The translations under genes were made by a program, and so were the position numbers. 63,194 bases of DNA from Candidatus Pacearchaeota archaeon (GTDB lineage Archaea > Nanobdellota > Nanobdellia > Pacearchaeales > GW2011-AR1), in NCBI GenBank assembly GCA_018304175.1, contig JAGVWT010000001.1:1-63194 (forward strand). The letters run 5' to 3'. Shown here piece by piece: positions 2,393-62,168 of this stretch (its first letter is position 1; the number at the start of each line of letters is the position of its first letter). The notes beneath the pieces were generated by a model that saw only the letters and a list, made by a program, of their open reading frames with translations, was not told the origin of the DNA and searched no databases.

Positions 2393-2401
2393 AAAAAAGA
2401 A

Positions 2402-2623
2402 TTAAGGAATTCTGTTAAAAAGATGCTCGTATAATAAATAAGCAAAACCAGTAACTGAAGAGGATTGATAAGTACTCCAAATAGCTTTCTGAAGTTTCGT
2501 CCCATTATTGAGAATTGTTGGCTTGCTTCCATTTGCATCATAACTGCTATAATATATTCCTAAAAATGGGATCCACTCTTTCCAATCAACTTTTTCAAGT
2601 TTTTGTTCTAAGTTATTTCCCAT
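2402..2623 (-). CDS. small hypothetical protein
   Basis: 73 aa ORF filling the gap between genes; TATA-like box upstream; no recognisable motif. Confidence 0.5.
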   Translation of the reverse strand: MGNNLEQKLEKVDWKEWIPFLGIYYSSYDANGSKPTILNNGTKLQKAIWSTYQSSSVTGFAYLLYEHLFNRIP

Positions 2624-2717
2624 TTTGTTACAATCAACCCTTGCTTTTTAAACTTTATGAATTAAAAAATAAAGTTGGGAATAGAGGCTACTTATTGATA
2701 CAAGAAAGCAATCTTAT

Positions 2718-2972
2718 TTAATTAATTTCTTTCAAAACCTTTTTTCCTTTCCTTGTAATCTTATAGTATCTAAAATGAGGCGATTCTGGATTCTTACATT
2801 TGGATAATCCTTGTTCCTGCAAATCTAAAAATATTCTGCTGATTACTTCTCTATGTTTTGTTAGTTTATGGGCTAGAAAAGAAGCTATCTGTGGTTTTTT
2901 ATTTAACTCTTTTAATACTTCTAATCTTAATTTACTCCTTGCAAAAAAGATTAAAATATCATCGCTAGCCAT
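2718..2972 (-). CDS. winged helix-turn-helix transcriptional regulator (ArsR/MarR-like)
   Basis: 84 aa; RSKLRLEVLKEL...ASFLAHKL...VISRIFLDL..GL..C...RYYKITRKG is a typical archaeal wHTH pattern. Confidence 0.7.
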   Translation of the reverse strand: MASDDILIFFARSKLRLEVLKELNKKPQIASFLAHKLTKHREVISRIFLDLQEQGLSKCKNPESPHFRYYKITRKGKKVLKEIN

Positions 2973-3073
2973 AAAAATATAGCGTAATTTTCAGAATATA
3001 AGGGAGGGTGATAATCAGCGTAATGTTTATAAAGCCTAAAATTATACGTCATTATAAAATTAATACAATAAAA

Positions 3074-3601
3074 ATGATCTTAACATTGGATATAATAAAT
3101 ATAGCACTAGGGATAGGCATACTCTTCTTAATACTTCTAATTATTGTAGTTGGAATATCTAATAGAAAAGTGATAATAGAAAAAAGAACATACCCTCAAA
3201 TAACAAATAAAGAAAATAGTTTAAATAAAGAAAGTATGACAAAAACTGTTATAATAATAGGAATATTATTTTTTGCTACATCTATAGTTTTTGGGCTTCT
3301 TTTTGCAAACTATTTGTTAAATAAGAATACAGAAGAAGTAAATTCTATTTATAATAAAATTGTTCAAAATAATCTTTTAATGAATAAATTAAGAAATGAT
3401 GTTATCAAGGCAACTAAAAATGAGAATGATGTTATCAAGGCAACTAAAAATGAGAATTTAGAAAATTTAGATTTTCTTTTGTTATTAGAAAAACAATTAG
3501 AAATACTTGCTAAAGAAAATGAAGATTTAGAAGATGAAATGCGGGAATTAAGAAGAGAAATAAGAAATTTTATTGCAATATTTCCAGTGAATACATATTA
3601 A
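3074..3601 (+). CDS. hypothetical membrane-anchored protein (2 TM + coiled coil)
   Basis: ORF track starts at GTG 3008; ATG 3074 preferred because a TATA box lies at 3026-3033. Two hydrophobic helices and a C-terminal heptad-like region (LEKQLEILAKENEDLEDEMRELRRE). Confidence 0.6.
   Translation: MILTLDIINIALGIGILFLILLIIVVGISNRKVIIEKRTYPQITNKENSLNKESMTKTVIIIGILFFATSIVFGLLFANYLLNKNTEEVNSIYNKIVQNNLLMNKLRNDVIKATKNENDVIKATKNENLENLDFLLLLEKQLEILAKENEDLEDEMRELRREIRNFIAIFPVNTY
3395..3454 (+). repeat. perfect 30-bp in-frame tandem duplication
   Basis: AATGATGTTATCAAGGCAACTAAAAATGAG occurs at 3395-3424 and 3425-3454 and encodes NDVIKATKNE twice. Confidence 0.95.
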
Positions 3602-3602
3602 A

Positions 3603-4754
3603 ATGAATTCTGTTTTTGTAGTATATTTAGCAATTTATACTATTTTTGCTTTTGGATATATCTGGTATAGATATATTTTCTTATTAATTTTGAAAGAAAG
3701 ATATTTTCCATTTTGTACACACAAAAAAGTTACTGTGATTGTTCCTTTTTATAATGAAAAGCCACTATTAATAGAAAGAACAGTAAGGAAGATAAATGAA
3801 TGTTATGGAAAAAAACAGATTATTGTTATTGATGATGGTTCAAAAAGTAAAGAAAGTTATAATCAACTCAAAAAATTAAAGGAGGAAATTTCTTTTGAAT
3901 TAATAAGATACGACAAAAATAAAGGGAAAAGATATGCTCAATCCATTGGAGTTAAAAAGGCTGAAGGAGATATAATCATTACAGTTGATTCAGATACTAT
4001 TTTAGATAAACTTGCTATAATTAATCTTATTAAACCATTTTCTGACAAAAAAATTGGTGCTACAACTGGACAAGTAAGAGTGTTAAATAGAAATGAAAAT
4101 TTATTGACAAAAATGCAATCTGCAAGATATTTTAATGCATTTAATTTTGAAAGAAATAGTCAATCTAAATTTAGTGCTTTGACTTGTCTATCAGGACCAA
4201 TATCTGCATATAGAAAAGAAATATTATTAAAAATTATGGATGATTATACAACGCAGACTTTTTTAGGTATAAAATGTACTTATGGTGATGATAGGCACTT
4301 AACAACTCTTATTCTGAAAAATGGATTTAAAGTGTACTATGTAAAAGATGCTATTGCTTATACAGAAGTACCTAATAGTTTTAAAAAATTAATATCACAA
4401 CAAATAAGGTGGAAAAAATCATTTTTAAGAGAAAATTATTTAGTTAGTAAATTTATGTTTAAAAGAAGTAAAGCACTTTCCTTTGAGATATTTATTACTA
4501 CTTTCATAATATTTTTTAGTCTTTTTGCCAGAGTATTTTTAGTAATTTCTTTGTTTGTAGTTCCATTTTTCTTCTTATTAATTATTCCAATGATTTTGTT
4601 TATGTCTACTTTACATTCTTTGTATATTTTGTTTTATAAACCAAATGATTTTTTTTATAGTATTTTGTATTCTTTTCTGCATGTATTTGTCATTTATTGG
4701 TTGATTTTTATAGCTTTATTTACTTTAAAAGATAATAGATGGGGAACGAGGTAA
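3603..4754 (+). CDS. processive GT2 glycosyltransferase, class I hyaluronan synthase / NodC-like
   Basis: DDGS, NKGKRYAQ, TVDSDT, SGPISAYR, QTFLGIKCTYGDDRHLT and QQIRWKKSFLRE motifs; N- and C-terminal TM helices. Confidence 0.85.
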   Translation: MNSVFVVYLAIYTIFAFGYIWYRYIFLLILKERYFPFCTHKKVTVIVPFYNEKPLLIERTVRKINECYGKKQIIVIDDGSKSKESYNQLKKLKEEISFELIRYDKNKGKRYAQSIGVKKAEGDIIITVDSDTILDKLAIINLIKPFSDKKIGATTGQVRVLNRNENLLTKMQSARYFNAFNFERNSQSKFSALTCLSGPISAYRKEILLKIMDDYTTQTFLGIKCTYGDDRHLTTLILKNGFKVYYVKDAIAYTEVPNSFKKLISQQIRWKKSFLRENYLVSKFMFKRSKALSFEIFITTFIIFFSLFARVFLVISLFVVPFFFLLIIPMILFMSTLHSLYILFYKPNDFFYSILYSFLHVFVIYWLIFIALFTLKDNRWGTR

Positions 4755-4789
4755 ATAAGATTCTTTAAACAAAACTCAGCTAAGAAACA

Positions 4790-5173
4790 CTAATACAAAA
4801 GGTCTCTTTTTTCTTTTTTTTGTTCTGCTTCTTTGTGGATTTTTGCAAAAGAAGGCGTTGCAATTACTAAGTTTTCACCGAAGCCTGCAATTGTTCCTTC
4901 CATAGCTTCAATTGTCTTTTTGACTTTTGATATTGCTCTCTTAAGCTCTATTGAATCTTTTTGCTTTAGTGTTTTAATATCTATGATAGCGATTGTGTAT
5001 CCTTCTCTCAATGAGTTAAGAATTTGGTTAACATCATCGTAATGTGTCATAACAAAAAGCTTCACAATTACTTTTTTGTCTTTTTTTTCCTGTCCAACGT
5101 CAATTTCTAGATAGTCTTCCCCCATGTCATCAGACCTATCTGAAAAGGCTCTTTTTATTTTTTCAAAAACCAT
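4790..5173 (-). CDS. sepF: cell division protein SepF
   Basis: 127 aa; ILNSLREGYTIAIIDI...ELKRAISKVKK...GTIAG...VIATP is the SepF fold with an N-terminal amphipathic helix. Confidence 0.85.
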   Translation of the reverse strand: MVFEKIKRAFSDRSDDMGEDYLEIDVGQEKKDKKVIVKLFVMTHYDDVNQILNSLREGYTIAIIDIKTLKQKDSIELKRAISKVKKTIEAMEGTIAGFGENLVIATPSFAKIHKEAEQKKEKRDLLY

Positions 5174-52531: not shown

Positions 52532-53401
52532 TTATTTGTCTTTATTATACTGGTTTCTTAAAATTTCAAGCCCTTCCTCAAAAGAATGTGTTTTTAATCC
52601 CAGATTTTCTATTTTCGATATATCCAAAGTTGTATTAAATGGGATTTTCATTTCAATTTCTGATTTTTCATTTGTTTGTATTGATGAAATTTTTGACTCA
52701 TCCCTAACTACTTTCTCTAAACTTTTTAAAAAATCAATCATTTTTACTCTGGTTGGTCCAGCAACATGAAATAAACCCCTTTGATTTTTCTTCAAGATAA
52801 ATAAAATAGCGCTTACAACATCATCAGCCAAGACAGGTTGCCTCATTTGATCAGGAGCTTTTAATTTTACTTCATTTCCAGATAATATTGAACCTCCAAA
52901 AACACCATTTTTTTCACCTTTTCCATTGTAACCATACATTGCATCTACCCTTATTACGATTGAATTTTTATAACTTAAAATCTCCTTCTCAGCCAACACT
53001 TTTGTTTTTCCATATTCATTCTCAGGATTAGGTAAGTCAGATTCGTTGTAATTTCCTTTCTTTCCGTCGAAGATATATGTTGAAGAAAAAAATACCATAA
53101 CTGAATTGATTGTTTTACATGCTTCTAAAATATTTTTTGCTGTTTCGTAATTCAATCTCCTACATAAATCTGGATTTTTTTCGCATGCAACAGAACTTGT
53201 TAATGCTATAGTATCTATAACAATATCTGGCTTATTATCATTTAGAAATTTTTTTATATCACCAGGAATTGTGGCGTCCAAATGCATTAATCCTTCCTTT
53301 TTGTTGTCAGAATAAGTTCCAATTACCTCGTGATTTTTTGATAGAAAGTTAAACAGCTTTGTTCCTAAAAATCCTGAGGCTCCAATTACCACTATTTTCA
53401 T
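52532..53401 (-). CDS. RmlD-like NDP-4-keto-sugar reductase (extended SDR)
   Basis: GASGFLG; SSTYIFDG; YGKTK (YxxxK). Confidence 0.88.
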   Translation of the reverse strand: MKIVVIGASGFLGTKLFNFLSKNHEVIGTYSDNKKEGLMHLDATIPGDIKKFLNDNKPDIVIDTIALTSSVACEKNPDLCRRLNYETAKNILEACKTINSVMVFFSSTYIFDGKKGNYNESDLPNPENEYGKTKVLAEKEILSYKNSIVIRVDAMYGYNGKGEKNGVFGGSILSGNEVKLKAPDQMRQPVLADDVVSAILFILKKNQRGLFHVAGPTRVKMIDFLKSLEKVVRDESKISSIQTNEKSEIEMKIPFNTTLDISKIENLGLKTHSFEEGLEILRNQYNKDK

Positions 53402-54501
53402 TTTAAAAGAGAAAGGTAAATATCTTTATATCTTTTGGTCACTGCCCTCCAACTATTCTCTTTCATGTACCTTTCGCATTCTTTTACCATTTTTTTGTAA
53501 TTTTTTGATTTTATACATTCGTGAACTAGTCTAGAATAATTACTTTCATTTTCTGCTGTCTTTATACAACCATAATTCTTTTCTATATCTGTAAAAAAAG
53601 GAATACTACTTGAGATAACTGGTTTTTTTGTAGCAATTGCATGTGTAAATATCCCACTACCAATTCCTCCTCTATAAGGCAACATAACGAAATCAGCTGC
53701 TGAGAAGTAAAGCCACCATTTCGGCATTTTATCATTCAGTGACGATATGTCGAATCTAACATATTCCGACAAATTCTGATGCTTAACTTCCCTCATTAAA
53801 TTTTCTATTATTCCTGACAATCTCTTTTTTTTCTCATCATTTACTGGATCTGGATTTGAAGCAATCAATAGTGTTTTCCCTATTTTATCCGCTTGCCCCA
53901 CAATTATATCTGTGCCTTTTCCGTATTGGAGATTTCCTATGATCAAGTATACATTGCTTTTTATTTTAAGAGATTTTTTTGCTTTGTTTTTCTCTGTTAT
54001 TTTTACACCTTCGATTATCCCTTGCGGTAAAACAACTATCTTTCTTTTTGGAACATTATACCAATTTACCAAAGTTGGTACAAAAAAGTTCGAATGTACA
54101 AAAATTAAATCAGATCCGTAATTTATCACTCGGTTTTGAAAAATATAAAGCAATTTTCTAAATATTGTTTTTATAAAGTTACTGTGAAACTTTTCATTCA
54201 ATGGTAAAATATTGTGCATAGTAGTAATCACTTTGTAATTTCTTGGTAAGATGAAATATAAATAAATTAAAAAATAAGGCAGCCCATAATAGCCTAATAG
54301 ATTATATTCGTGCTGAATATGGACAATATCATAACTCTTAAATTTTGGAAATAATTTAAAAAATGAGATTGGTAATCCCCTTTCATAAGTTACAAAGTCC
54401 ATATCAATTTTATTTATTTTTGCTGCTTTAACAAGTTCTTCAGAATAACCAGATATTGCCTTTTCTGATTTTCTTGAGGGGGTGACCATTGCTACTTTCA
54501 T
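53398..54501 (-). CDS. GT4-like glycosyltransferase
   Basis: DIVHIQHEY; TTMHN; GNLQYGKG; ADFVMLPY; KPVISS. Confidence 0.85.
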   Translation of the reverse strand: MKVAMVTPSRKSEKAISGYSEELVKAAKINKIDMDFVTYERGLPISFFKLFPKFKSYDIVHIQHEYNLLGYYGLPYFLIYLYFILPRNYKVITTMHNILPLNEKFHSNFIKTIFRKLLYIFQNRVINYGSDLIFVHSNFFVPTLVNWYNVPKRKIVVLPQGIIEGVKITEKNKAKKSLKIKSNVYLIIGNLQYGKGTDIIVGQADKIGKTLLIASNPDPVNDEKKKRLSGIIENLMREVKHQNLSEYVRFDISSLNDKMPKWWLYFSAADFVMLPYRGGIGSGIFTHAIATKKPVISSSIPFFTDIEKNYGCIKTAENESNYSRLVHECIKSKNYKKMVKECERYMKENSWRAVTKRYKDIYLSLLK

Positions 54502-54502
54502 C

Positions 54503-55537
54503 TTAATAAGAATCTATAATTTCTTTTATTTTCTCCAATGCTTCTTCTGAAATCTCTTTTTTCTTAGAATTATTTATTTTACTTCGCCAATAATCAATAG
54601 TTTTCCTTAAACCTTCTTCAGGAGACATTGTTTGTCGCCAACCAAGAATTCTTTGCGCTTTTGATGCATCCAAAACTAAATATGGCTGATCTGATTTTAA
54701 TGGGCGAGATGGATATCCTGGGGGATATTCTCCAAAATGTATTTTTTCTAAAGGAAAGTTTATTTGTTCTGCAATTTTTAATGTCCACTCTTTGTTAGTG
54801 TATCCTTTCCCTCCGGCAATGTTAAATACCTGTCCTTTCGCATTTGGAGATTTCATGGCAAGCAAGTAAGAATTAACATGATCGTCAACATACATATAAT
54901 CCCTCACAGAGTCTGGCGCTCCTATGTAAATATCGTTTCCTTTGAGCATTTCTGTTATCAGATATTCAGTAAAAAAACTATCATCATATTTTCTTCCAAA
55001 AGTATTTGAGTTTCTTAAAAGAACTCCGTTAAAATCGTAGATATAAAAAAGCATTCTCATGTACATATCCATTGAAGCTTTTGCAACTGCATAAGGACTT
55101 GAAGGCTCTAAACGTAAATCTTCAGTTGACGGCGACATTGAATTTTGGATTCCATAAACTTCTGCTGTTGATGCCACAATAAGCCTTACTTTTTCAACAC
55201 CATATAAATCCAATATAGCTTCCACAATATTTACTGTCCCTAAAAATGTGTTTTTTTGATAATCAAAAGGGTGTTCAAAACTTAATCTTACGGGAGACAA
55301 TGCTGCTAAGTGAAAAACTACTTCTGGCCCAACTTTTTTCAATGAGTTTCTTACAGAAAAATAATCTGTCGTGTCGCATGTTATTAATTTTATTTTATCT
55401 TTTATGTCATCTAAACATTTTAGGTCTCTTCCAACAACATGCCTAACAAATCCATACACTTCCTGTCCTTCTTCAACAAGTTTATGAGCTAATTCCGCAC
55501 CTATAAATCCAGTAATTCCTGTGATTAAAACCCTCAT
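54503..55537 (-). CDS. NDP-sugar 4,6-dehydratase (GDP-mannose/dTDP-glucose type)
   Basis: TGITGFIG; HLAA.S.V..SF; ASTAEVYG; SPYAVAK; RDYMYVDD. Confidence 0.9.
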   Translation of the reverse strand: MRVLITGITGFIGAELAHKLVEEGQEVYGFVRHVVGRDLKCLDDIKDKIKLITCDTTDYFSVRNSLKKVGPEVVFHLAALSPVRLSFEHPFDYQKNTFLGTVNIVEAILDLYGVEKVRLIVASTAEVYGIQNSMSPSTEDLRLEPSSPYAVAKASMDMYMRMLFYIYDFNGVLLRNSNTFGRKYDDSFFTEYLITEMLKGNDIYIGAPDSVRDYMYVDDHVNSYLLAMKSPNAKGQVFNIAGGKGYTNKEWTLKIAEQINFPLEKIHFGEYPPGYPSRPLKSDQPYLVLDASKAQRILGWRQTMSPEEGLRKTIDYWRSKINNSKKKEISEEALEKIKEIIDSY

Positions 55538-55667
55538 ATTTTCTGAGAGGTAATTTTATTTATAAGATTAGTGGTACTGAAGTTCATGGATTATCAATTC
55601 ATAAATTTTAAAAATAAGAAATTTTATGAAAACAAAAGGCATAATCAGGATAATAAGGAAAGATTAA

Positions 55668-56063
55668 AAGCTAAAAATATACACTTCATCACCTGACGAA
55701 TTTAAGGATCTGGAAGTGGAAGTTGAAAAAGCAACAAAAGAAACTATGTCAAATCCAAATATTATCACCACTGTTTGTAGAGCAGGATGGGGGGCAGTAA
55801 CTGATGGAATCATGGCTGGAAAGGGAGTTATGCTAGTTAATACTGGAAAGGGGGATGATCCTGAAATTATACTTAACACAAAAAAACTTGTAGATTATGG
55901 TTTTGCTTCGGTAATTGACGAAAGACCTATAAAAGAGGTAATGCAAGAAGCAGTTAATAAATCGCAAAATGTTTCGGCTTTCTTAGATAAAAGCATGCAA
56001 GAATATGGAACTATAGAAGGTCCCATATATGCTGGAAAGAGATTGGCTAGAGAATTAAAATAA
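55668..56063 (+). pseudogene. isolated GT28/MurG-like C-terminal domain (truncated or split glycosyltransferase)
   Basis: CRAGWGAVTDGIMAGKGVMLV...PEIILNTKKL resembles GT28_C; the frame is open back only to a TAA at 55665, with GTG 55716 the first start. Confidence 0.5.
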
Positions 56064-56073
56064 ATTAAATAAA

Positions 56074-56922
56074 ATGAATTACTCCCCTCCAAACTACAAC
56101 GAAGACTTTAGAGACCGGATTGCAATTGTTACAGGAGCTGCATCTGGGATAGGAAGGTCAATAGCAGAAGGATTATCATATCATAGAGCACAAATTTGCA
56201 TGTTGGATACTAACGAAACAAAGGGGCATGATGTTTTGAATAATTTAAGAAAAAATTCTCCAAGTTCTGAATTTTATGAAACAGATGTTTCTGATAGAGA
56301 AAATGTGAAGAAAACAATTGAAAAAATTGTTTCAGAGCAAGGGGCTCCTTGGATTCTTGTTAATAATGCAGGCATAGAATATAATGATGATGGAAATTTA
56401 ATAACAATGCCTGAAGAAAAAGCAGATGAAATCTTAAACACAAACCTTCAAGGATACCTAAATATGCTAAGATCTGTTGTTCCCTATATGATAAAGAATG
56501 GAGGGGGAAGAATCGTAAATGTAAGCTCAGTTCAAGGAATTCAGTCATTTAAACCAGGAACAATTTATCAGATAGTAAAGGCAGGGATTCCTGCTATAGC
56601 AAGAAATATGGCTTTGGAGTATGGAAGACAGAATATAAAAGTTAATACTATTTCACCAGGAGCAATTAAGACAGAAGGAATGGGTGATGCAAGAATAAAT
56701 AGAGATGGAGTAAATAGTTTGAGAAGTTTAATTCCTATTGGAAGAAGAGGCCATTCTGAAGAGATAGCAGATGTCACTCTATTTTTATTGTCTGAAAAAT
56801 CGTCATATATTTACGGTCAAAATATAATTGTTGATGGAGGATTATTAACCCATAGGCAACTTGGAGGGTTAGGTGTTCCTGAAAAACCTGTTGATAACGA
56901 CCCTGAACCTAACCTATTCTAA
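56074..56922 (+). CDS. classical short-chain dehydrogenase/reductase
   Basis: TGAASGIG; LVNNAG; VNVSS; YQIVK (YxxxK); VNTISPG; GRRG..EEIA. Confidence 0.92.
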   Translation: MNYSPPNYNEDFRDRIAIVTGAASGIGRSIAEGLSYHRAQICMLDTNETKGHDVLNNLRKNSPSSEFYETDVSDRENVKKTIEKIVSEQGAPWILVNNAGIEYNDDGNLITMPEEKADEILNTNLQGYLNMLRSVVPYMIKNGGGRIVNVSSVQGIQSFKPGTIYQIVKAGIPAIARNMALEYGRQNIKVNTISPGAIKTEGMGDARINRDGVNSLRSLIPIGRRGHSEEIADVTLFLLSEKSSYIYGQNIIVDGGLLTHRQLGGLGVPEKPVDNDPEPNLF

Positions 56923-56966
56923 TTAATCACAACAATACTTAAAAGGGGAAAAATTATAAAATAAAA

Positions 56967-57563
56967 ATGACTGATAAAATAACAGAATTTAAAACGGTAG
57001 AAAATCCTTTTTTCATGGAATCTATTGAAAATGGCACAGATTTAGAAACTTTAAGATATAAGGGACGAGGGGAAGCAGTTTATGCAGACGGAAGGCAAGT
57101 TCTTGTAAGGAGTTGTCATGATGCTCTTGTTTCTTGTGATAATGATTATGGAAGAATGGGAATTTTATTAGTAAGAAGAAATGCAGAACCTGCAAGAGGA
57201 TATTTATGGTCTTTAGGGGGATTTTTTGATAGAGGAGTTCCTACAAACACAAGTCTTGCTTCAAGGATAAAAGGTGAAAGTGGATTAGAAGTTAATGAAG
57301 AAAGTTTTGTTGTTCTAGGGCATATAAGAGCGATGTGGAATACAACACCAAATAAAGAAGCCGAACAAAAAAAACTCCCGTTAGGAATTGATGATACTGG
57401 TTTGCTTTTTTATGCTAAAAGTTCTGGTGGAAAATTAAATCTTGACAAATTGCATGATAGACCAAAAATTATAACGCCAGGTATGTATACAACAGATTTC
57501 AGAGAAAGCTTACACCCTTATATCTCAATGGGGATGGATAGAGCAATACCGCTATTAAAATAA
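56967..57563 (+). CDS. degenerate Nudix protein, GDP-mannose mannosyl hydrolase-like
   Basis: LLVRRNAEPARGYLWSLGGFFDRG...RIKGESGL echoes the GDPMH R..PA.G.W..PGG...E.GL pattern. Confidence 0.6.
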   Translation: MTDKITEFKTVENPFFMESIENGTDLETLRYKGRGEAVYADGRQVLVRSCHDALVSCDNDYGRMGILLVRRNAEPARGYLWSLGGFFDRGVPTNTSLASRIKGESGLEVNEESFVVLGHIRAMWNTTPNKEAEQKKLPLGIDDTGLLFYAKSSGGKLNLDKLHDRPKIITPGMYTTDFRESLHPYISMGMDRAIPLLK

Positions 57564-57671
57564 AAGATAATTTTTCTTTTAAAAAGAATTTTTACTAATT
57601 TTTCTTCTATAAGATTTAATATAGAACTCAACTCCATAAAACTTTTTAAAACAAATCTTTATTGATGTTAG

Positions 57672-58481
57672 ATGATTTTAAATTCTGCACTAATACTTGC
57701 CGGAGGGAAAGGAACTAGGTTTGAAGAAAGAACAGAAGATTTACCTAAACCACTGATTCCTGTAAGAGGAAAGCCAATACTCGAAAGAATAATTGAATGG
57801 CTTAAAAGCAATGGAGTTACTAATATAATTATAGGTGTAGCATATAAAAAAGAAATGATTATGAATTATTTTGGAGATGGAAGTGATTTTGGAGTTAGGA
57901 TTAATTATGTGGAACACAGTCAAGAAGGTGGGACAGAAGATGCATTTAAAACAGACATTGAACAGGTATTTGAAAAAGGACTAATTAACGAAGAGAATTT
58001 TTATGCAATGAACGGCGACCAAATAACTGATTTGCAACTAGAAGGGCTAACTAATGCGCATTTGAGAAATAGCCCCATAGTAACTTTGGTAAGTGTTAAA
58101 TTAAAAACTAATTTTGGAGTTATTAACTTAAACGACAGGAGCCAAGTAATAGAATTTAAAGAAAAAGGAGAAGTTCATGATAAAATGATTAATTCTGGGA
58201 TTTATGTGTTCAATAAAAAGATAAAAGATTACCTTGAAGGAGAGAATATAGAGGAAAATGCTTTCAGAAAATTAATTAAGGAAGGAAAAATATATTCTTT
58301 TTACTACGACGGTGTTTGGCTTACGGTAAATGATAAAAATGAGTTGAAAAAAGCTGAGGAATTTGTAAAAGATTTTGATGTATTAAACATAAAAAATAGT
58401 AAAAATTTAGAATTTGGGGGTTCAAAAGAAAAAGAAGTTATAGAAAAAATAAGAAATGTTTTAAATGAATTAGTAAAATGA
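57672..58481 (+). CDS. sugar-1-phosphate nucleotidyltransferase
   Basis: LILAGGKGTRF...LPKPLIPVRGKPIL; NGD; INSGIY. Confidence 0.92.
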   Translation: MILNSALILAGGKGTRFEERTEDLPKPLIPVRGKPILERIIEWLKSNGVTNIIIGVAYKKEMIMNYFGDGSDFGVRINYVEHSQEGGTEDAFKTDIEQVFEKGLINEENFYAMNGDQITDLQLEGLTNAHLRNSPIVTLVSVKLKTNFGVINLNDRSQVIEFKEKGEVHDKMINSGIYVFNKKIKDYLEGENIEENAFRKLIKEGKIYSFYYDGVWLTVNDKNELKKAEEFVKDFDVLNIKNSKNLEFGGSKEKEVIEKIRNVLNELVK

Positions 58482-58930
58482 AAATATTAATTGTGTTAAG
58501 GAAATGGAATGATAATGAAGGTGTTGGGAATGATGTTAAAAAAATCAAAGAGAAATTTGAGTTAAAAGGACATAAAGTTGATATAATTTCAAGAGAAGAT
58601 GACTTAAACATAACATCCCTTTCTGGCTCTATGGGAAGTTTAAAGGAAACAATTAGAAGAAAAGACGAAGTAGAAAACTATGATATCATTTATACACAAG
58701 ATTGGAGCATTGCGTTTCCACTTCTCATCCCGATCAGAATATTTAAAGAAAAACACTATTGTCTTTTTCACAAAATCCAGGGAGAAGGAGAAAATGGAGA
58801 AAACTCGGGAATATTTCAGAGAATTGTTGGTAATATGTTAGGAGAAAAACTTTTGGTAAAAACAGAGAGTTTAAAAAAAATGTTTCCTAAAGCAATATTT
58901 TCTCCTGATGGCATAAATATAAGGACTTAA
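58478..58930 (+). CDS. stand-alone GT4 N-terminal domain protein
   Basis: Shares GH.VDI.SREDDL and YDIIYTQD.S.A.PL..P with the N-half of 60284..61240; ends with no donor-binding domain. Confidence 0.65.
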   Translation: MKILIVLRKWNDNEGVGNDVKKIKEKFELKGHKVDIISREDDLNITSLSGSMGSLKETIRRKDEVENYDIIYTQDWSIAFPLLIPIRIFKEKHYCLFHKIQGEGENGENSGIFQRIVGNMLGEKLLVKTESLKKMFPKAIFSPDGINIRT

Positions 58931-58995
58931 CATATGTTATTCTCTTTCATAATTTTTAAATAAGGGATAAATTCTTGATTCATATAAAAAGTAAA

Positions 58996-60309
58996 ATGAA
59001 AATTGCTATTTTTGGTATGGGTTATGTCGGCTCTGTCAGTGCTGTTTGTTTAGCTGAACTGGGACATCAGGTTATCTGCAACGACATAAAAAAGAAAAAA
59101 GTTGACGAAATAAATCTAGGAATTCCTCCAATTAAAGAACCTGGTTTAGGAGATTTACTAAAAAAGCATGCTGGAAAAAATATATTTGCTACAACAGACA
59201 TAAACGAAGCTGTTGATAAATCAGATATTGGAATAATTTGTGTCGGCACACCTTTAGGTTACGATGACAGACTGGATAATTCAAGAGTTCACATGGTTTT
59301 TAATGACATAATAAGTAATGTAAAAAAACCTTATATAATATTAATAAGGAGCACTGTTTCTCCCGGAACTATCGATTTTCTAAAAAATAAAATTAAAGAT
59401 AAAGAAATAAAAATAGTAATGAATCCTGAATTTTTAAGAGAAGGAAGTGCTATAGAAGATTTTTTTAATCCAAGTTTAATGGTCATAGGCTCTTCAGACA
59501 ATGAGACTATAGACAAAATTAGAATGATGTATTGGGGAGTTAATGGGCAAATAATCTTAACTAATGAAAAAGTTGCTGAAATGATAAAATATGTTAATAA
59601 CTCATGGCATGCTCTAAAAATTTCTTTCGCAAATGAAATAGGGAGTATTGCTTCAAGGCTTGAAATAAACCCTCAAGAACTTATGGAAGTTTTTTCAAAT
59701 GATAATAAACTTAATATTTCAAAAAAATATCTTAAACCCGGCTTCGCGTATGGTGGTTCTTGCCTGCCAAAAGACACTTCTGCATTAGTCAATATGGCCC
59801 ATAAAGAGGGCTTAAACATTCCACTAATTGATTCAATAGACAAAAGTAATCAGGAACATATTAACAGGGCATTAAAAATTATTTTGAGTACTAACTATAG
59901 AGAAATAGGAATAATCGGCTTATCTTTCAAATATGACGGAACATCTGGAGACATAAGGGGAAGTCCAACGTTGACATTAATAAATAAACTTACAGAAACT
60001 GGGTTTGTAAGATTATTTGATAAAGGATACAACATAAAAGTTTATGATCCGTATATGGATGTCGACGAATTTAACAATTACCTTCCTTTCTTAAAAGATA
60101 TAAAAGAGGAAAATCTTGACAAGCTTGTGCAAAATTCAAAGTTAATTGTTATTGGAAATTTTATGCCCGATTTAAAAAATCTAATCAATAAGCTAGAAGA
60201 CCACCACATAATCCTTGATTTGCAGGGGGCAATTAATCCTTCTGACATAAAAAAAGGAAAATACTTAAGCTTGTATAATAAAAATGAAGATATTAATTGT
60301 TTTACTTAG
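58996..60309 (+). CDS. UDP-glucose/GDP-mannose 6-dehydrogenase family (AlgD-like)
   Basis: GMGYVG; ICVGTP; NPEFLREGSA; GGSCLPKD catalytic Cys. ATG 58996 preferred over 58975. Confidence 0.93.
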   Translation: MKIAIFGMGYVGSVSAVCLAELGHQVICNDIKKKKVDEINLGIPPIKEPGLGDLLKKHAGKNIFATTDINEAVDKSDIGIICVGTPLGYDDRLDNSRVHMVFNDIISNVKKPYIILIRSTVSPGTIDFLKNKIKDKEIKIVMNPEFLREGSAIEDFFNPSLMVIGSSDNETIDKIRMMYWGVNGQIILTNEKVAEMIKYVNNSWHALKISFANEIGSIASRLEINPQELMEVFSNDNKLNISKKYLKPGFAYGGSCLPKDTSALVNMAHKEGLNIPLIDSIDKSNQEHINRALKIILSTNYREIGIIGLSFKYDGTSGDIRGSPTLTLINKLTETGFVRLFDKGYNIKVYDPYMDVDEFNNYLPFLKDIKEENLDKLVQNSKLIVIGNFMPDLKNLINKLEDHHIILDLQGAINPSDIKKGKYLSLYNKNEDINCFT

Positions 60310-61240
60310 AATTCCCGGCGGTGTTGGAAGGGCAAACACGGAAATAGCAAATGCATTAAGAAAAAAAGGGCATGAAGTTGATATTTTATCAAGAGAAGAT
60401 GATTTACAAAAATATTCTTTAAAAGGGGGTTTTCTTCCGATAAGAAGAAAAGTTAAGAAGTTGATGAAAGAAAAAAATTATGATATAATTTACACTCAAG
60501 ACTATAGTTGCGCACTTCCATTGATATTACCATACCCAATTTTTTTGAGAAAGCACTTTTATTGTTCAATTGGCGTAAAATGGGGAAAAGATATTCATAC
60601 ACTCCTACAAAATTTTACAGGTAAATTTATGAGAAGAAAAGTTATAGTTCTGTTTCACCATAACAAAAAAAGATTTCCGAGGGCACATGTTATTTATCGC
60701 GCAGTGAATATTGAAAAATTTAGACCACTAAACAAAAAAAGAGATTCTTTTGGGTGGATAAATAAATTCTCTGAAATGGGTAATCAGAAAATTTATGAAA
60801 AAGTTGCAAAGGAACTTGAATTAAAACCGCTGTCTGCTGGAAACCCTGGGAGAGAAACAAAATCGAAGGATAAAAACAAAGGAAAAGTGGTATATCATTC
60901 TTTTGATAAATTCTCTGACATGAACGAATTCTATAATAAATGTAAGGTTTTCATAAATTTAGCAACTCCCGACGCTGGTTTTAATCTTTCGTGGCTTGAG
61001 GCAATGTCTGCAGGCGTCCCTATTGTAATAGGCAATAATAATGGAGCTGGCCCAATAATGCCATTTGACAAGATAGATAAATGGAAAAACGAAAGAGACT
61101 TTGAAGCGCAAATAAAAAAAATATTAAAAAATCCAAAAAAAATAAACTATAGAAGGTGGCTTATAGATAATGGCTTCACATGGGATAGAGTTGCTGATGA
61201 ACTTCTAATGATATTTAAAAGTGATGGAAAAAATGTTTGA
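60284..61240 (+). CDS. GT4-like glycosyltransferase
   Basis: YNKCKVFINL; AGFNLSWLEAMSAGVP; TWDRVA. Confidence 0.85.
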   Translation: MKILIVLLRIPGGVGRANTEIANALRKKGHEVDILSREDDLQKYSLKGGFLPIRRKVKKLMKEKNYDIIYTQDYSCALPLILPYPIFLRKHFYCSIGVKWGKDIHTLLQNFTGKFMRRKVIVLFHHNKKRFPRAHVIYRAVNIEKFRPLNKKRDSFGWINKFSEMGNQKIYEKVAKELELKPLSAGNPGRETKSKDKNKGKVVYHSFDKFSDMNEFYNKCKVFINLATPDAGFNLSWLEAMSAGVPIVIGNNNGAGPIMPFDKIDKWKNERDFEAQIKKILKNPKKINYRRWLIDNGFTWDRVADELLMIFKSDGKNV

Positions 61241-62168
61241 AGAAAAACTTAGTGAAATATCTGAAAAATTCAAAAACTCTCAAAAAAAGAAATACTACAT
61301 ATTAAAGCATAAAAAGCATAAGAGAGAAGTATACTTCCAAAATAAAGAAAACGCTGTTAATTTTATGAGAGTAAAATTTAATTCCCCCCTTAAAAGAATT
61401 ATCTATTTTTTTATTAAAATAGGATTACTTCAACCATTCTTGAAAAATGTTTATTTAGCAGAGAATTTTGGTGATGTAATTTTTGTCGCAGGACAAATAA
61501 AGGGATTTAAACTAAAAGATAAAAAAGTTATATCATTCCCTTTACTTGGAAAAAACGAAGATTTCATAAAATCAAAGAAATTTCAAGAAAAATTTGCGCT
61601 AGAGGGGTTTGCTCCAAAAATCTTTGAGATAAATAAGAATAAAATTTATTCGATAGAAGAGATGCTAACAGTTTATCAAGAAAATGATGATTCTGGATTA
61701 ATTAAAAGACTAATGGAATTTTATAACTCTCAGGGAATTAAGAAAATTTCTTTAAAAGAGCATCTAAAAAAAATAAACAAAAGAATAAAAAAAAGCCCTT
61801 ACAAAAATTATATAAAAAGCGTTCTTAAAAGAATGAATTTGTCTGGAAAAAAATTTGTAGTAACAACACTTCATGGAGATTTTTCAAGAGGACAGATTTT
61901 ATTAAAAGAAGGAAAATATGTTTTTGTTGATTGGAATCCTGAAGTAGATTTAATAACTTATGACTTAGTGAGGTTTTTTGAATCAGATCCTTATCTTTTA
62001 AAAAACAAAAAGTTCTTAACACTATTGAATTTATACCCTGAAGATATAAAAAAGAATATAAGGGATTACATAATCTTATCAGATATATATGGGATAATCA
62101 AAAAAAATGTGCTTTATCCCCATACAATAAAAAGAGTAGAATTTACTCTCAATTGTAAGACTTATTAA
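61221..62168 (+). CDS. aminoglycoside/choline phosphotransferase-like kinase
   Basis: FAPKI; LHGDFSRGQI (Brenner motif variant); FVDWN; YDLVRF. Confidence 0.7.
   Translation: MMEKMFEEKLSEISEKFKNSQKKKYYILKHKKHKREVYFQNKENAVNFMRVKFNSPLKRIIYFFIKIGLLQPFLKNVYLAENFGDVIFVAGQIKGFKLKDKKVISFPLLGKNEDFIKSKKFQEKFALEGFAPKIFEINKNKIYSIEEMLTVYQENDDSGLIKRLMEFYNSQGIKKISLKEHLKKINKRIKKSPYKNYIKSVLKRMNLSGKKFVVTTLHGDFSRGQILLKEGKYVFVDWNPEVDLITYDLVRFFESDPYLLKNKKFLTLLNLYPEDIKKNIRDYIILSDIYGIIKKNVLYPHTIKRVEFTLNCKTY

What the first reader, a model, noticed from the sequence alone, without database searches (positions are those of the whole stretch)
3603..4754. Class I hyaluronan-synthase-like gene in a DPANN archaeon, on an AT-rich patch
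Seen: NKGKRYAQ, TVDSDT, NLLTKM..ARY.NAF..ER..QS, SGPISAYR, QTFLGIKCTYGDDRHLT and QQIRWKKSFLRE, in a region visibly more AT-rich than the core operons. Known (recalled motifs): streptococcal HasA has NKGKRHAQ, TVDSDT, QTFLG, GDDRCLT and QQNRWNKSFFRE; vertebrate HAS has C(T/S)FGDDRHLT; NodC has GEDRHLT and QQLRWARS. The match fits HAS better than NodC. Inference: a horizontally acquired synthase for a hyaluronan- or chitin-like capsule, co-translated with a membrane-anchored coiled-coil partner (TAA-A-ATG junction). It could help host attachment or masking. A UDP-Glc/GDP-Man dehydrogenase at 58996 is a possible uronic-acid source.
Basis: partly seen in the sequence, partly recalled or inferred. 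Interest (0 to 1): 0.75.

Follow-up and report, generated by a model that had tools for sequence, protein, structure and literature searches.

The report
Acquired HAS/NodC-like polysaccharide synthase cassette
A tiny archaeon has picked up a 2.4-kb, very AT-rich gene island that encodes a membrane sugar-polymer synthase resembling hyaluronan synthases, always paired with a small membrane-anchored partner protein; it belongs to an untested branch of the family, so whether it makes hyaluronan, chitin or something else is still open.

Summary
ORF 3603-4754 (+, 383 aa) carries every quoted motif, sits 1 nt after a membrane/coiled-coil ORF, and lies in the most AT-rich 2.4 kb of the 544-kb genome.

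- HAS-like: best solved-structure matches are Chlorella-virus and Xenopus HAS by sequence (E 1e-45) and by fold (pLDDT 92.9, TM 0.80-0.85). All CvHAS substrate and metal residues are kept except H174 (N here). At positions where NodC differs from HAS it has the HAS state.
- Not a demonstrable HAS: a careful tree puts it in an uncharacterised clade outside the clade that holds HasA, eukaryotic/viral HAS and NodC. AU tests reject pairing it with any of them.
- Horizontal acquisition is well supported. Five relatives keep the flanking genes but have 58 bp to 1.6 kb at this site. Synthase GC3 is 14.6% against 26.5 ± 3.8%.
- The partner+synthase pair is conserved, tightly spaced, and co-varies with the synthase subclade.
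- The NDP-sugar dehydrogenase is 54 kb away in a separate glycan cluster. No close relative has one adjacent; some have a deacetylase or GlmU.

Verdict: new variant of a known kind. The product is probably GlcNAc-containing; chitin-like is slightly favoured over HA-like.

The parts
2393..4789 (.). 2.4-kb low-GC island inserted between a conserved membrane-protein gene (2006-2392) and sepF (4790-5173)
   Evidence: The same-genus genome G001 has 58 bp between these two genes. G025 has 120 bp, G008 about 717 bp, G004 about 760 bp and G003 about 1.6 kb. None of the four island ORFs gives a tblastn hit in those stretches. The island is 25.1% GC, and none of the 1686 genome windows of 2.4 kb is lower. 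No flanking direct repeats, tRNA or integrase were found.
2402..2623 (-). 73-aa ORF of unknown function inside the island
   Evidence: ORF list. No Pfam match. No homologue in the syntenic relatives. It may or may not be a real gene.
2718..2972 (-). 84-aa winged-helix-type DNA-binding protein, divergent from the cassette; candidate local regulator
   Evidence: Sub-threshold Pfam match to HVO_A0261_N (E 3.8e-6, 27 bits against a cut-off of 35). Absent from the syntenic relatives. The regulatory role is inferred from the divergent arrangement only.
2973..3073 (.). 101-bp divergent intergenic region with TATA-like A/T boxes (TTTATAAA at 3026-3033, ATTATAAAATTAAT at 3050-3063)
   Evidence: Read directly from the sequence. 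Promoter function is inferred, not tested.
3074..3601 (+). Partner protein, 175 aa from the ATG at 3074 (the listed GTG at 3008 would add 22 residues that no homologue has). It has two N-terminal TM helices, a long helical/coiled-coil domain and a C-terminal tail ...AIFPVNTY.
   Evidence: Hydropathy and sequence. AF2 model with pLDDT 70.9: helices 3-39, 46-121 and 128-168, tail disordered. No Pfam or NCBIfam family. Homologous type-A partners sit directly upstream of the synthase in L008, L010 and L124. The K/R-rich loop between the TM helices suggests an N-out/C-out topology (inference).
3395..3454 (+). Perfect 30-bp tandem duplication inside the partner gene (NDVIKATKNE twice)
   Evidence: the repeat finder family D3, 100% identity. 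Absent from homologous partners.
3599..3605 (+). TAA-A-ATG junction: partner stop and synthase start 1 nt apart
   Evidence: Sequence. The equivalent spacing in relatives ranges from -4 to +3 nt in nine of the other eleven pairs found (outliers +33 and +96 nt).
3603..4754 (+). 383-aa membrane-integrated GT2 synthase of the HAS/NodC/chitin-synthase superfamily. It has one N-terminal TM, a GT-A domain, interface helices, two further TM helices, and ends at the WGTR gating-loop motif.
   Evidence: Pfam GT2 and Chitin_synth_2. PDB sequence search: CvHAS E 1e-45, XlHAS1 4e-42. AF2 pLDDT 92.9. Foldseek: XlHAS1/CvHAS E 1e-24, TM 0.80-0.85. Residue table. Trees and AU tests.
58975..60309 (+). Nucleotide-sugar dehydrogenase (UDP-glucose 6-dehydrogenase-like). 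It is a possible but unlinked source of UDP-GlcA and is not part of the island.
   Evidence: NCBIfam NDP-sugDHase 351 bits (above cut-off). Best equivalogs are AglM at 255 bits and TuaD at 248 bits, both below their cut-offs. It is the only member of this family in the genome. It sits in a cluster with a sugar nucleotidyltransferase, a GT4, dehydratase/reductase genes and a flippase-like gene at 52-63 kb.

Best explanation
Positions 2393-4789 are a recently acquired gene island. It carries a small divergent DNA-binding protein and a two-gene operon: a membrane-anchored helical partner (3074-3601) translationally coupled to a 383-aa processive family-2 glycosyltransferase (3603-4754).

The synthase belongs to an uncharacterised clade found mostly in DPANN archaea, with some CPR and actinobacterial members. 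This clade lies just outside the clade that contains streptococcal HasA, viral/vertebrate HAS and rhizobial NodC.

Shown here:
- The fold and every UDP-sugar, metal, acceptor and gating-loop residue of Chlorella-virus HAS are present except H174, which is N here, as in HasA and NodC.
- The gene was gained at this site.
- The partner-synthase pair is conserved.

Inferred:
- The enzyme sits in the membrane with its GT-A domain in the cytoplasm.
- It uses UDP-GlcNAc, the donor common to all characterised relatives, possibly with a second UDP-sugar.
- It builds a beta-linked GlcNAc-containing oligo- or polysaccharide.
- The chain is passed outward through a path formed by its three TM helices and interface helices.
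- The partner's last TM helix stands in for the TMH1 that HAS enzymes have and this protein lacks.
- The partner's helical domain and conserved C-terminal tail lie outside the cell at the exit.

On product identity I lean as follows: chitin-like poly-GlcNAc about 0.4, hyaluronan-like or another GlcNAc/uronic-acid polymer about 0.3, something else about 0.3.
For: Enzyme class and fold:
- Pfam GT2 and Chitin_synth_2.
- phmmer against the PDB gives CvHAS 159.6 bits and XlHAS1 148 bits. Genuine HasA gives only 104 and 123 bits against the same entries.
- AF2 pLDDT is 92.9. The top 13 Foldseek hits are all HAS structures, E 1e-20 to 1e-24 and TMq 0.76-0.85, against 1e-13 for chitin synthases and 1e-12 for BcsA.

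Active site (residue roles from PMC12987647 and PMC11750622):
- Y50, E52, K109, D129xD131, R184, C195, G198, Y227-G228-D229-D230, R269-W270, S273, R276 and W380-G-T-R383 match CvHAS Y91, E93, K177, D201xD203, R256, C267, G270, Y299-GDD, R341-W342, S345, R348 and W454-R457.
- R175 and R184 match XlHAS1 R287 and R296, which flank GlcA-2. NodC has E at the first of these.

Placement:
- The careful tree puts the query in a 9-row clade (100/99) within a 17-row clade (94/90).
- All characterised enzymes fall in a separate 18-row clade (100/98). AU tests agree.

Gain at this site: empty site in five syntenic relatives, and a GC and GC3 outlier. The closest homologues sit in different contexts, next to an IS transposase or toxin-antitoxin genes.

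Partner:
- A small membrane-protein gene sits directly upstream, with spacing of -4 to +3 nt, in ten of the twelve pairs found.
- Partner type A or B tracks the synthase subclade.
- Partner-bearing archaeal synthases have one N-terminal TM, whereas HasA and CvHAS have two.
- A C-terminal motif (two hydrophobic residues, P, 2-7 residues, then Y or S as last residue) occurs in 8 of 13 partners against 0.3-0.6% of ORFs.

GlcNAc lean: a deacetylase overlaps or abuts the synthase in L013 and L017 and lies nearby in L010, and GlmU is adjacent in L011. No dehydrogenase is adjacent in this clade.
Against: - No biochemical data exist for any member of this clade, so donor sugars, linkage and chain length are all inferred.
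- The assembly lacks GlmS and any PGM/PMM-type mutase. UDP-GlcNAc could not be made de novo and would have to come from a host. The assembly is 88% complete, so absence is not proven.
- NodC has the same minimal three-TM topology and does not export its product (PMC4132801). A secretion path is therefore not guaranteed.
- The TMH1-substitute idea rests on topology arguments and crude hydropathy counts. Some partner-less relatives (Lactococcus plasmid enzyme, NodC) also have a single N-terminal TM.
- The C-terminal motif was defined after looking at the sequences.
- The deacetylase association is seen in only 3 of about 11 distinct loci, and none of the three is among the closest relatives (62-67% identical).
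Confidence: 0.6

Rival explanations
1. It is a true class I hyaluronan synthase. It alternates UDP-GlcNAc and UDP-GlcA, the latter supplied by the dehydrogenase at 58975-60309, and extrudes a hyaluronan capsule.
For: - Closest solved relatives by sequence and by fold are HAS enzymes.
- It has the HAS state at every position where HAS and NodC differ: R175, F180, D229 and WGTR. It even has the viral/vertebrate state at C195, C225 and Y227, where HasA deviates.
- Both arginines that contact GlcA-2 in XlHAS1 are conserved (PMC11750622).
- The genome has one UDP-Glc-dehydrogenase-like gene.
- A related Lactococcus plasmid enzyme (38% identity) sits beside a dehydrogenase.
Against: - It lies outside the clade holding every proven HAS, and AU tests reject union with HasA, Cv/Xl HAS or both.
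- The HAS-like residues are shared by the whole uncharacterised clade, so they are probably ancestral.
- No member of its clade has a dehydrogenase adjacent.
- Two genomes with clade members show no dehydrogenase at all, although both are incomplete.
- Its own dehydrogenase lies in a separate glycan cluster 54 kb away.
- It lacks TMH1 and the GLYG motif of class I HAS.
Confidence: 0.22
2. It is a chitin or chito-oligosaccharide synthase that uses UDP-GlcNAc only, as NodC or a minimal chitin synthase does. The product is either kept inside for further modification or secreted as a chitin-like layer.
For: - Its topology matches NodC: one N-terminal TM plus two C-terminal TMs and an interface helix (PMC4132801).
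- Pfam Chitin_synth_2 scores 71 bits.
- Polysaccharide deacetylase genes overlap or abut the synthase in L013 and L017 and lie nearby in L010. GlmU is adjacent in L011.
- No dehydrogenase is linked within the clade.
- From my own knowledge, not checked here: class I HAS enzymes are reported to make chitin oligomers when given UDP-GlcNAc alone.
Against: - The NodC model score of 240 bits is far below the 550 cut-off. It is no higher than what real HasA (230 bits) gives.
- The protein has GDDR and WGTR, not GEDR and WLSR, and R rather than E at the IFH1 position.
- The AU test rejects union with NodC.
- There is no nodA/nodB-type context and no PF01522 gene in this genome.
- Fold similarity to true chitin synthases is much weaker than to HAS.
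- The NodC 'ruler' positions are not diagnostic. L19 aligns with A16. The R349 column holds R, K or H in all families, including HAS.
Confidence: 0.38
3. It makes a different polymer that neither model predicts. Examples are a Glc/GlcA polymer like pneumococcal type 3, a GlcNAc/GlcNAcA polymer, or a lipid-linked glycan.
For: - The clade is separate from all characterised enzymes.
- A sister branch of the superfamily is regularly preceded by a divergent NDP-sugar dehydrogenase with a VGLGYVGLP motif, which hints at uronic-acid chemistry unlike HA.
- The genome lacks hexosamine synthesis genes but has a sugar-1-P nucleotidyltransferase and a dehydrogenase.
Against: The acceptor collar that holds GlcNAc in XlHAS1 and CvHAS is fully conserved: Y176, F180, C195, W270, S273, D230 and R231. 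All characterised relatives use UDP-GlcNAc.
Confidence: 0.2
4. The island is an assembly or binning artefact, or the genes are silent cargo with no role in this organism.
For: The composition is extremely atypical.
Against: - The island lies in the middle of a 63-kb contig, with syntenic genes on both sides.
- The identical protein is recorded on 11 contigs in the public collection, the longest 68 kb.
- Both ORFs are intact, and all catalytic residues are present.
Confidence: 0.05

Closest known systems
Class I-NR hyaluronan synthases (Chlorella virus CvHAS/A98R, vertebrate HAS1-3; PDB 7SP6-7SPA, 8SMM-8SNE, 9YQ2-9YQ5)
   Same: GT-A catalytic domain with DxD, GDDR, QxxRW and WGTR motifs. All substrate-, metal- and acceptor-contacting residues match, including both IFH1 arginines, the switch-loop Cys and the priming-loop Cys. 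These are the best matches by sequence (E 1e-45) and by fold (TM 0.80-0.85).
   Different: About 185 residues shorter. It lacks TMH1 and the two C-terminal TM helices after the gating loop, and ends exactly at WGTR. Its N-terminal TM has FGY in place of GLYG. It lies in a different clade (AU p 1e-5). It is encoded with a separate membrane partner. No link to UDP-GlcA supply has been shown.
Streptococcal HasA (class I-R hyaluronan synthase; S. pyogenes, S. equi, S. uberis)
   Same: Similar small size and the same C-terminal end at WGTR. Shared motifs are NKGKRxAQ, TVDSDT, QTFLG, GDDRxLT and QQxRWxKSF.
   Different: HasA has two N-terminal TM helices and is encoded beside hasB (UDP-Glc dehydrogenase). 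It has V, V and I where the query and Cv/Xl HAS have C, C and Y. It forms its own 100/100 clade that excludes the query (AU p 2e-4). The pXO1 hasA hit (35% identity) was seen but not fetched.
Rhizobial NodC chito-oligosaccharide synthase (NCBIfam TIGR04242)
   Same: Same minimal topology: TM1, GT domain, interface helix, two TMs and IF3. It is the best NCBIfam hit at 240 bits, aligned end to end (PMC4132801).
   Different: The score is under half the 550-bit cut-off and equals what real HasA scores. NodC has GEDR, WLSR, E at the IFH1 arginine position and C at the collar Phe. There is no nodAB context. The AU test rejects union (p 1.4e-4).
Two-subunit bacterial exopolysaccharide synthases (PgaC-PgaD, IcaA-IcaD, BcsA-BcsB)
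   Same: A processive GT2 synthase is encoded next to a small membrane-anchored accessory protein in one operon. This is an analogy from established knowledge of those systems.
   Different: The partner here is upstream rather than downstream. It is unrelated in sequence and has no Pfam match. It is predicted to carry an extracellular helical domain. The synthase itself is distant from PgaC (117 bits against a 422 cut-off), which serves as the outgroup in the trees.

Membership tests
Class I hyaluronan synthase | GT2 GT-A domain with DxD(T), GDDR, QxxRW and WGT(R/SGRK) motifs, plus the UDP, metal and acceptor residues defined in the CvHAS and XlHAS1 structures | tested here: met
   D129-S-D131-T, G228-D-D-R231, Q266-Q-I-R-W270 and W380-G-T-R383 are present. 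18 of the 19 listed CvHAS residues are identical; H174 is N, as in HasA (residue roles from PMC12987647 and PMC11750622).
Class I hyaluronan synthase | Overall fold superimposable on solved HAS structures | tested here: met
   AF2 pLDDT 92.9. The top 13 Foldseek hits are XlHAS1 or CvHAS, E 1e-20 to 8e-25 and TMq 0.76-0.85.
Class I hyaluronan synthase | Phylogenetic placement inside, or as exclusive sister of, a clade of experimentally proven HAS | tested here: not met
   The query lies outside the 18-row clade (100/98) that holds HasA, Cv/Xl HAS and NodC. AU tests reject query+HasA (2e-4), query+Cv/Xl HAS (1e-5) and query+all HAS (5e-55).
Class I hyaluronan synthase | N-terminal TMH1-TMH2 pair with the GLYG motif | tested here: not met
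   There is a single N-terminal helix (residues 2-28) before the GT domain. The aligned motif reads AFGYIW. HasA and CvHAS have two TM helices there.
Class I hyaluronan synthase | Genetic linkage to UDP-glucose dehydrogenase (hasB next to hasA in streptococci) | tested here: not met
   The only dehydrogenase is 54 kb away in another cluster. None is adjacent in 11 loci of the query's clade.
Class I hyaluronan synthase | Alternating transfer of GlcNAc and GlcA; hyaluronidase-sensitive product | not testable with these tools
   This needs enzyme assays.
NodC chito-oligosaccharide synthase | Score at or above the curated cut-off of NCBIfam TIGR04242 (550 bits) | tested here: not met
   240.5 bits. 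As controls, S. pyogenes HasA scores 229.7 and PBCV-1 HAS 150.7.
NodC chito-oligosaccharide synthase | NodC-specific residue states (GEDR, WLSR, QLFRG, RST after QxxRW) and nodA/nodB neighbours | tested here: not met
   The query has GDDR, WGTR, QTFLG and KKS. There is no PF01522 gene in the genome. The AU test rejects union with NodC.
PgaC/IcaA poly-beta-1,6-GlcNAc synthase | Score at or above the cut-off of TIGR03937 (422 bits) | tested here: not met
   116.9 bits. PgaC is the outgroup in the trees. A different gene of this genome (contig C14, 70695-71924) is the PgaC-like one at 184.6 bits, which is also below the cut-off.
Pfam Chitin_synth_2 (PF03142) / processive GT2 superfamily | Score above the Pfam gathering threshold (27 bits) | tested here: met
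   71.4 bits over residues 110-338. This places it in the broad superfamily only and says nothing about the product.

The most novel reading that the evidence does not exclude
The cassette is a two-subunit synthase for hyaluronan or a related GlcNAc/uronic-acid polymer. The separately encoded partner supplies the TMH1 and extracellular element that single-chain HAS enzymes carry themselves. Spread by transfer among DPANN and CPR episymbionts, it lets them coat themselves in a host-compatible acidic glycan. In this reading the clade represents the prokaryotic stock from which viral/eukaryotic class I-NR HAS and NodC later specialised.
Probability: 0.12. Interest if true: 0.8.

Novelty: new variant of a known kind. 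Interest (0 to 1): 0.5.

Why it matters
Hyaluronan synthesis is known only from vertebrates, a few pathogenic bacteria and chloroviruses, and its evolutionary origin is unsettled. This protein comes from a large, untested clade of minimal HAS/NodC-type enzymes. My first search found more than 1000 relatives. At the active site these enzymes resemble viral and vertebrate HAS more closely than streptococcal HasA does.

These enzymes are very small (380 aa). They could be convenient models for how one active site chooses its sugars and how a three-TM core exports a polymer.

The conserved, translationally coupled partner suggests a split architecture that has not been described for HAS or NodC.

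For DPANN biology, a laterally acquired surface-polysaccharide cassette in a 0.5-Mb genome that cannot make its own hexosamine points to a function worth paying for with host-derived sugars. Candidates are attachment, protection or masking. Any of the product outcomes (HA, chitin or a new polymer) would be new for this lineage. I found no paper in the searchable library that links HAS-type enzymes to DPANN.

Tried and rejected
- Literature: three searches for hyaluronan synthase, NodC or chitin synthase together with DPANN lineages found nothing relevant.
- AT-richness as a by-product of membrane-protein composition: rejected, because GC3 alone is 3 sd below the genome mean.
- Mobile-element signatures: no flanking direct or inverted repeats beyond AT-rich noise, and no tRNA or integrase in the 2.4 kb.
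- Viral origin: the phage collection gave only distant GT2 hits. IMG/VR relatives are at most 38% identical, mostly giant-virus and chlorovirus HAS-like genes.
- The metagenome-contig scan with the single protein returned one true relative only.
- NodC 'molecular ruler' residues as a predictor of chain length: not diagnostic.
- Substrate supply as a discriminator: GlmS, PGM/PMM-type mutases and PF01522 are all absent, so neither product is favoured.
- Genome-wide co-occurrence with dehydrogenases: 4 of 6 genomes, which is uninformative.
- Partner annotation: no Pfam or NCBIfam family for any partner type. The AF2 model of the partner gives helices only.
- Earlier scan notes held nothing on this locus.
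- They return no genomic context and would not have changed the verdict.
Full report
**1. What is there**

The upstream ORF stops at TAA 3599-3601, and one A separates it from the synthase ATG. The interval is strikingly AT-rich. Windows of 1 kb at 3-5 kb are 24-26% GC against about 31-33% elsewhere. Over the whole 544-kb assembly, the 2.4 kb between 2393 and 4789 is the lowest of 1686 windows of that size (25.1% against 32.9 ± 1.9). Synthase GC3 is 14.6% against 26.5 ± 3.8% for 291 long ORFs, and the partner's GC3 is 14.3%. The bias is therefore at synonymous sites and is not a by-product of a hydrophobic protein.

**2. What kind of enzyme it is**

- Pfam gives GT2 families plus Chitin_synth_2.
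- The best NCBIfam model is NodC at 240.5 bits, far below its 550-bit cut-off. PgaC/IcaA scores 117. As a control, authentic S. pyogenes HasA scores 229.7 and PBCV-1 HAS 150.7 on the same NodC model. The sub-threshold NodC hit is simply what any member of this superfamily gives.
- Against PDB sequences the best matches are Chlorella-virus HAS (E 1e-45, 159.6 bits, query 94-383 aligned to 163-458) and Xenopus HAS1 (4e-42). Chitin synthases reach only 1e-10.
- Genuine HasA matches those HAS structures less well (104 and 123 bits).
- An AlphaFold2 model built on 48 homologues is confident (pLDDT 92.9, pTM 0.90). Its 13 best Foldseek hits are all HAS structures (E down to 8e-25, TMq 0.76-0.85). 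After them come an archaeal mannosyltransferase (1e-15), chitin synthases (1e-13) and BcsA (1e-12). No NodC structure turned up in either PDB search.

**3. Residue-level comparison**

I obtained verified reference sequences as follows:
- HasA of S. pyogenes, S. equi and S. uberis. My remembered bait turned out 100% identical to the database entry.
- NodC from three annotated sym plasmids.
- CvHAS and XlHAS1 segments from the HMMER output, plus full-length chlorovirus HAS from IMG/VR loci.
- PgaC as outgroup.

Residue roles come from PMC12987647 and PMC11750622. The query keeps CvHAS Y91, E93, K177, D201/D203, R256, C267, G270, Y299, G300-D-D302, R341-W342, S345, R348 and W454-G-T-R457. Only H174 differs; it is N, as in HasA and NodC.

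At the positions where HAS enzymes and NodC differ, the query has the HAS state every time:
- XlHAS1 R287 is E in NodC.
- F292 is C in NodC.
- The first D of GDDR is E in NodC.
- G and T of WGTR are L and S in NodC.

At three positions it has the viral/vertebrate state where HasA has diverged (C307, C337 and Y299-equivalent). However, all sampled members of the query's own clade share these states. They are most simply read as ancestral for this part of the superfamily, with NodC and HasA as the derived lineages.

The two 'molecular ruler' residues proposed for NodC (L19 and R349, PMC4132801) do not discriminate. L19 aligns with A16, but HasA also has L there. The R349 column holds R, K or H in every family, including the polymer-forming HAS enzymes.

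**4. Phylogeny**

A first search found 1159 relatives. The best are 56-67% identical, 380-385 aa long and unnamed, or named Nanoarchaeota, Woesearchaeota or Pacearchaeota. IMG labels several of them 'hyaluronan synthase/N-acetylglucosaminyltransferase'. A scan of species-representative genomes shows the wider family in other groups as well. These include CPR bacteria (Berkelbacteria, 42%), Actinomycetota, Bathyarchaeota and Thermoplasmatota.

A careful maximum-likelihood tree (59 rows, LG+C20+F+G4) recovers a HAS/NodC-like superfamily (100/100). Inside it:
- A clade whose members are mostly preceded by a divergent NDP-sugar dehydrogenase (100/98).
- A 38-row clade (97/95) that splits three ways:
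  - (i) a small clade that includes a deacetylase-linked gene;
  - (ii) a 17-row clade (94/90) holding the query's 9-row group (100/99) and a second DPANN group, with Berkelbacteria and Gaiellaceae;
  - (iii) an 18-row clade (100/98) that holds every characterised enzyme: Firmicute HasA, Cv/Xl HAS, NodC and a Lactococcus plasmid enzyme.

AU tests reject forcing the query's group together with HasA (p 2e-4), Cv/Xl HAS (1e-5), NodC (1.4e-4) or all HAS (5e-55).

Within clade (iii) the proven HA synthases are not monophyletic. The product of the common ancestor, and so of the outgroup clade, cannot be inferred. The gene is neither a generic IcaA-type GT2 nor a NodC nor a demonstrable HAS. It is an untested sister lineage.

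**5. Horizontal acquisition**

Among 60 species representatives of the same genus, family and order, none has an orthologue. The best are 34% and 31% identical. The rest match a different, roughly 410-430-aa GT2 that this genome also has on contig C14, and which is PgaC/IcaA-like.

The flanks are conserved: S-layer-like gene, membrane-protein gene 2006-2392, sepF, prefoldin, eL43, uL11, Spt5 and FtsZ. In the same-genus genome the membrane gene and sepF are 58 bp apart. In four family members the gap is 120 bp, about 717 bp, about 760 bp and about 1.6 kb. None of the four island ORFs is found in those gaps.

The nearest homologues of the synthase sit in unrelated contexts. One lies 1.6 kb from a DDE transposase. 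Another lies among HicA, PemK and VapB-type genes.

Gain of a 2.4-kb island at a variable intergenic spot is therefore the parsimonious reading; I put it at about 0.85. No terminal repeats or integrase were found, so the mechanism of insertion is unknown.

**6. The partner**

Homologue lengths (148-175 aa) support the ATG at 3074 as the start. From there the upstream ORF encodes two TM helices, a long helical segment and a short tail. The AF2 model has pLDDT 70.9, with helices 3-39, 46-121 and 128-168. It matches no Pfam or NCBIfam family.

In every archaeal relative I looked at, a small membrane-protein gene lies directly upstream on the same strand. Of the twelve pairs found, ten have a stop-to-start spacing of -4 to +3 nt.

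The partners are of at least two kinds:
- Type A has two TMs plus a coiled coil, with tails ending IFPVNTY, IVPTPNY, ILPGAHY or IVSGPHY. It accompanies the query's subclade.
- Type B has one N-terminal TM plus a 120-250-aa domain, with tails ending TPVFVS, SPIFVS or ILPSGSGIVS. It accompanies the other DPANN subclade.

Gaiellaceae and one same-order genome have further variants. A C-terminal pattern (two hydrophobic residues, P, 2-7 residues, then Y or S as the last residue) is present in 8 of 13 partners against 0.3-0.6% of ORFs. I defined this pattern after seeing the sequences.

Partner-bearing archaeal synthases have a single N-terminal TM, where HasA and CvHAS have two. By the positive-inside rule, the partner's C-terminal domain is outside the cell. 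NodC's equivalent TM1 runs out-to-in (PMC4132801), so the synthase N-terminus is outside too.

This fits a split version of the HAS layout TMH1, extracellular loop, TMH2. In that version the partner contributes the missing helix and an enlarged outer element. This is inference only. It was not tested here, and it is weakened by partner-less enzymes that also have one N-terminal TM (NodC and the Lactococcus plasmid enzyme).

**7. Which product**

*For a uronic-acid polymer.* The IFH1 arginines are conserved. One UDP-Glc-dehydrogenase-like gene is present (351 bits on the subfamily model, AglM/TuaD-like).

*Against a uronic-acid polymer.* That gene lies 54 kb away, in a cluster with a nucleotidyltransferase, a GT4, dehydratase/reductase genes and a flippase-like gene. 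No locus of the query's clade has a dehydrogenase beside the synthase. Dehydrogenase adjacency is common in a different branch of the superfamily and in the Lactococcus plasmid.

*For a GlcNAc homopolymer.* A deacetylase gene overlaps the synthase in L013 and abuts it in the Nanoarchaeota single-cell genome L017. One lies 2 kb away in L010. GlmU is divergent from the pair in L011.

*Uninformative.* The genome lacks GlmS, PGM/PMM-type mutases and CE4 deacetylases, so precursors must come from outside in either case. Genome-wide co-occurrence with dehydrogenases is 4 of 6.

I therefore commit only to a GlcNAc-containing beta-glycan. Chitin-like is somewhat more likely than HA-like.

**8. Limits**

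- No eukaryotic chitin synthase or pneumococcal Cps3S sequence could be added to the tree.
- Model coordinates could not be inspected for a channel.
- The pXO1 hasA hit seen was deliberately not fetched.

**Verdict**

This is a new variant of a known kind, of moderate interest.

Noticed in passing
genome contig C14:70695-71924 (outside the window): A second processive GT2 of 409 aa, PgaC/IcaA-like (184.6 bits, below cut-off). This one is conserved across most family- and order-level relatives, unlike the island synthase.
   Followed up: partly
L099 (same-genus genome G001), L021, L023, L025, L029, L035, L037, L046, L064 and others: In a sister branch of the superfamily (Actinomycetota, CPR, Elusimicrobia, Hadesarchaea, Bathyarchaeota and one same-genus DPANN), the synthase is immediately preceded by a full-length but divergent NDP-sugar dehydrogenase. 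It carries a VGLGYVGLP motif and is 22-27% identical to UGDH. This looks like a conserved two-gene unit for an unknown uronic-acid polymer.
   Followed up: partly
L034 (Luedemannella flava, Micromonosporaceae), match at 2738-3763: In the careful tree this actinobacterial protein is the sister of the Chlorella-virus plus Xenopus HAS pair (100/96). It is a possible nearest prokaryotic relative of class I-NR HAS.
   Followed up: no
P0077 (547 aa homologue): A family member 48% identical over 68% of the query carries an extra Pfam hit (PF14890), which I recall to be an intein splicing domain. That would suggest an intein inserted in a synthase gene.
   Followed up: no
L005:2759-5176 (Lactococcus plasmid pUCCL639B) and L019 (Pseudolactococcus laudensis): A dairy Lactococcus plasmid carries a nucleotide-sugar dehydrogenase plus a 397-aa HAS/NodC-like synthase next to an IS3 transposase. 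The synthase is 38% identical to the query and also ends at WGTR. It looks like a mobile capsule or EPS pair.
   Followed up: partly
window 2393-4789 compared with L116, L118-L121: The intergenic spot between the membrane-protein gene and sepF varies from 58 bp to 1.6 kb among relatives, so it seems to be a recurrent insertion site. I did not examine the contents of the longer gaps in G003, G004 and G008.
   Followed up: no
L016:1617-2390 (Berkelbacteria): The ORF ending 2 nt before the synthase contains a GGKCLPKD-type stretch, typical of UDP-glucose dehydrogenases, followed by a TM helix. It is possibly a truncated or repurposed dehydrogenase fragment acting as the partner.
   Followed up: no
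window 52532-63194: A surface-glycan cluster. It holds RmlD-like and dTDP-glucose-dehydratase-like genes, GT4 genes, an SDR, a sugar-1-P nucleotidyltransferase, the NDP-sugar dehydrogenase and a MATE/Wzx-like flippase that runs off the contig end.
   Followed up: partly
window 3395-3454: A perfect 30-bp tandem duplication inside the partner gene, absent from homologues. This suggests a very recent slippage event.
   Followed up: partly
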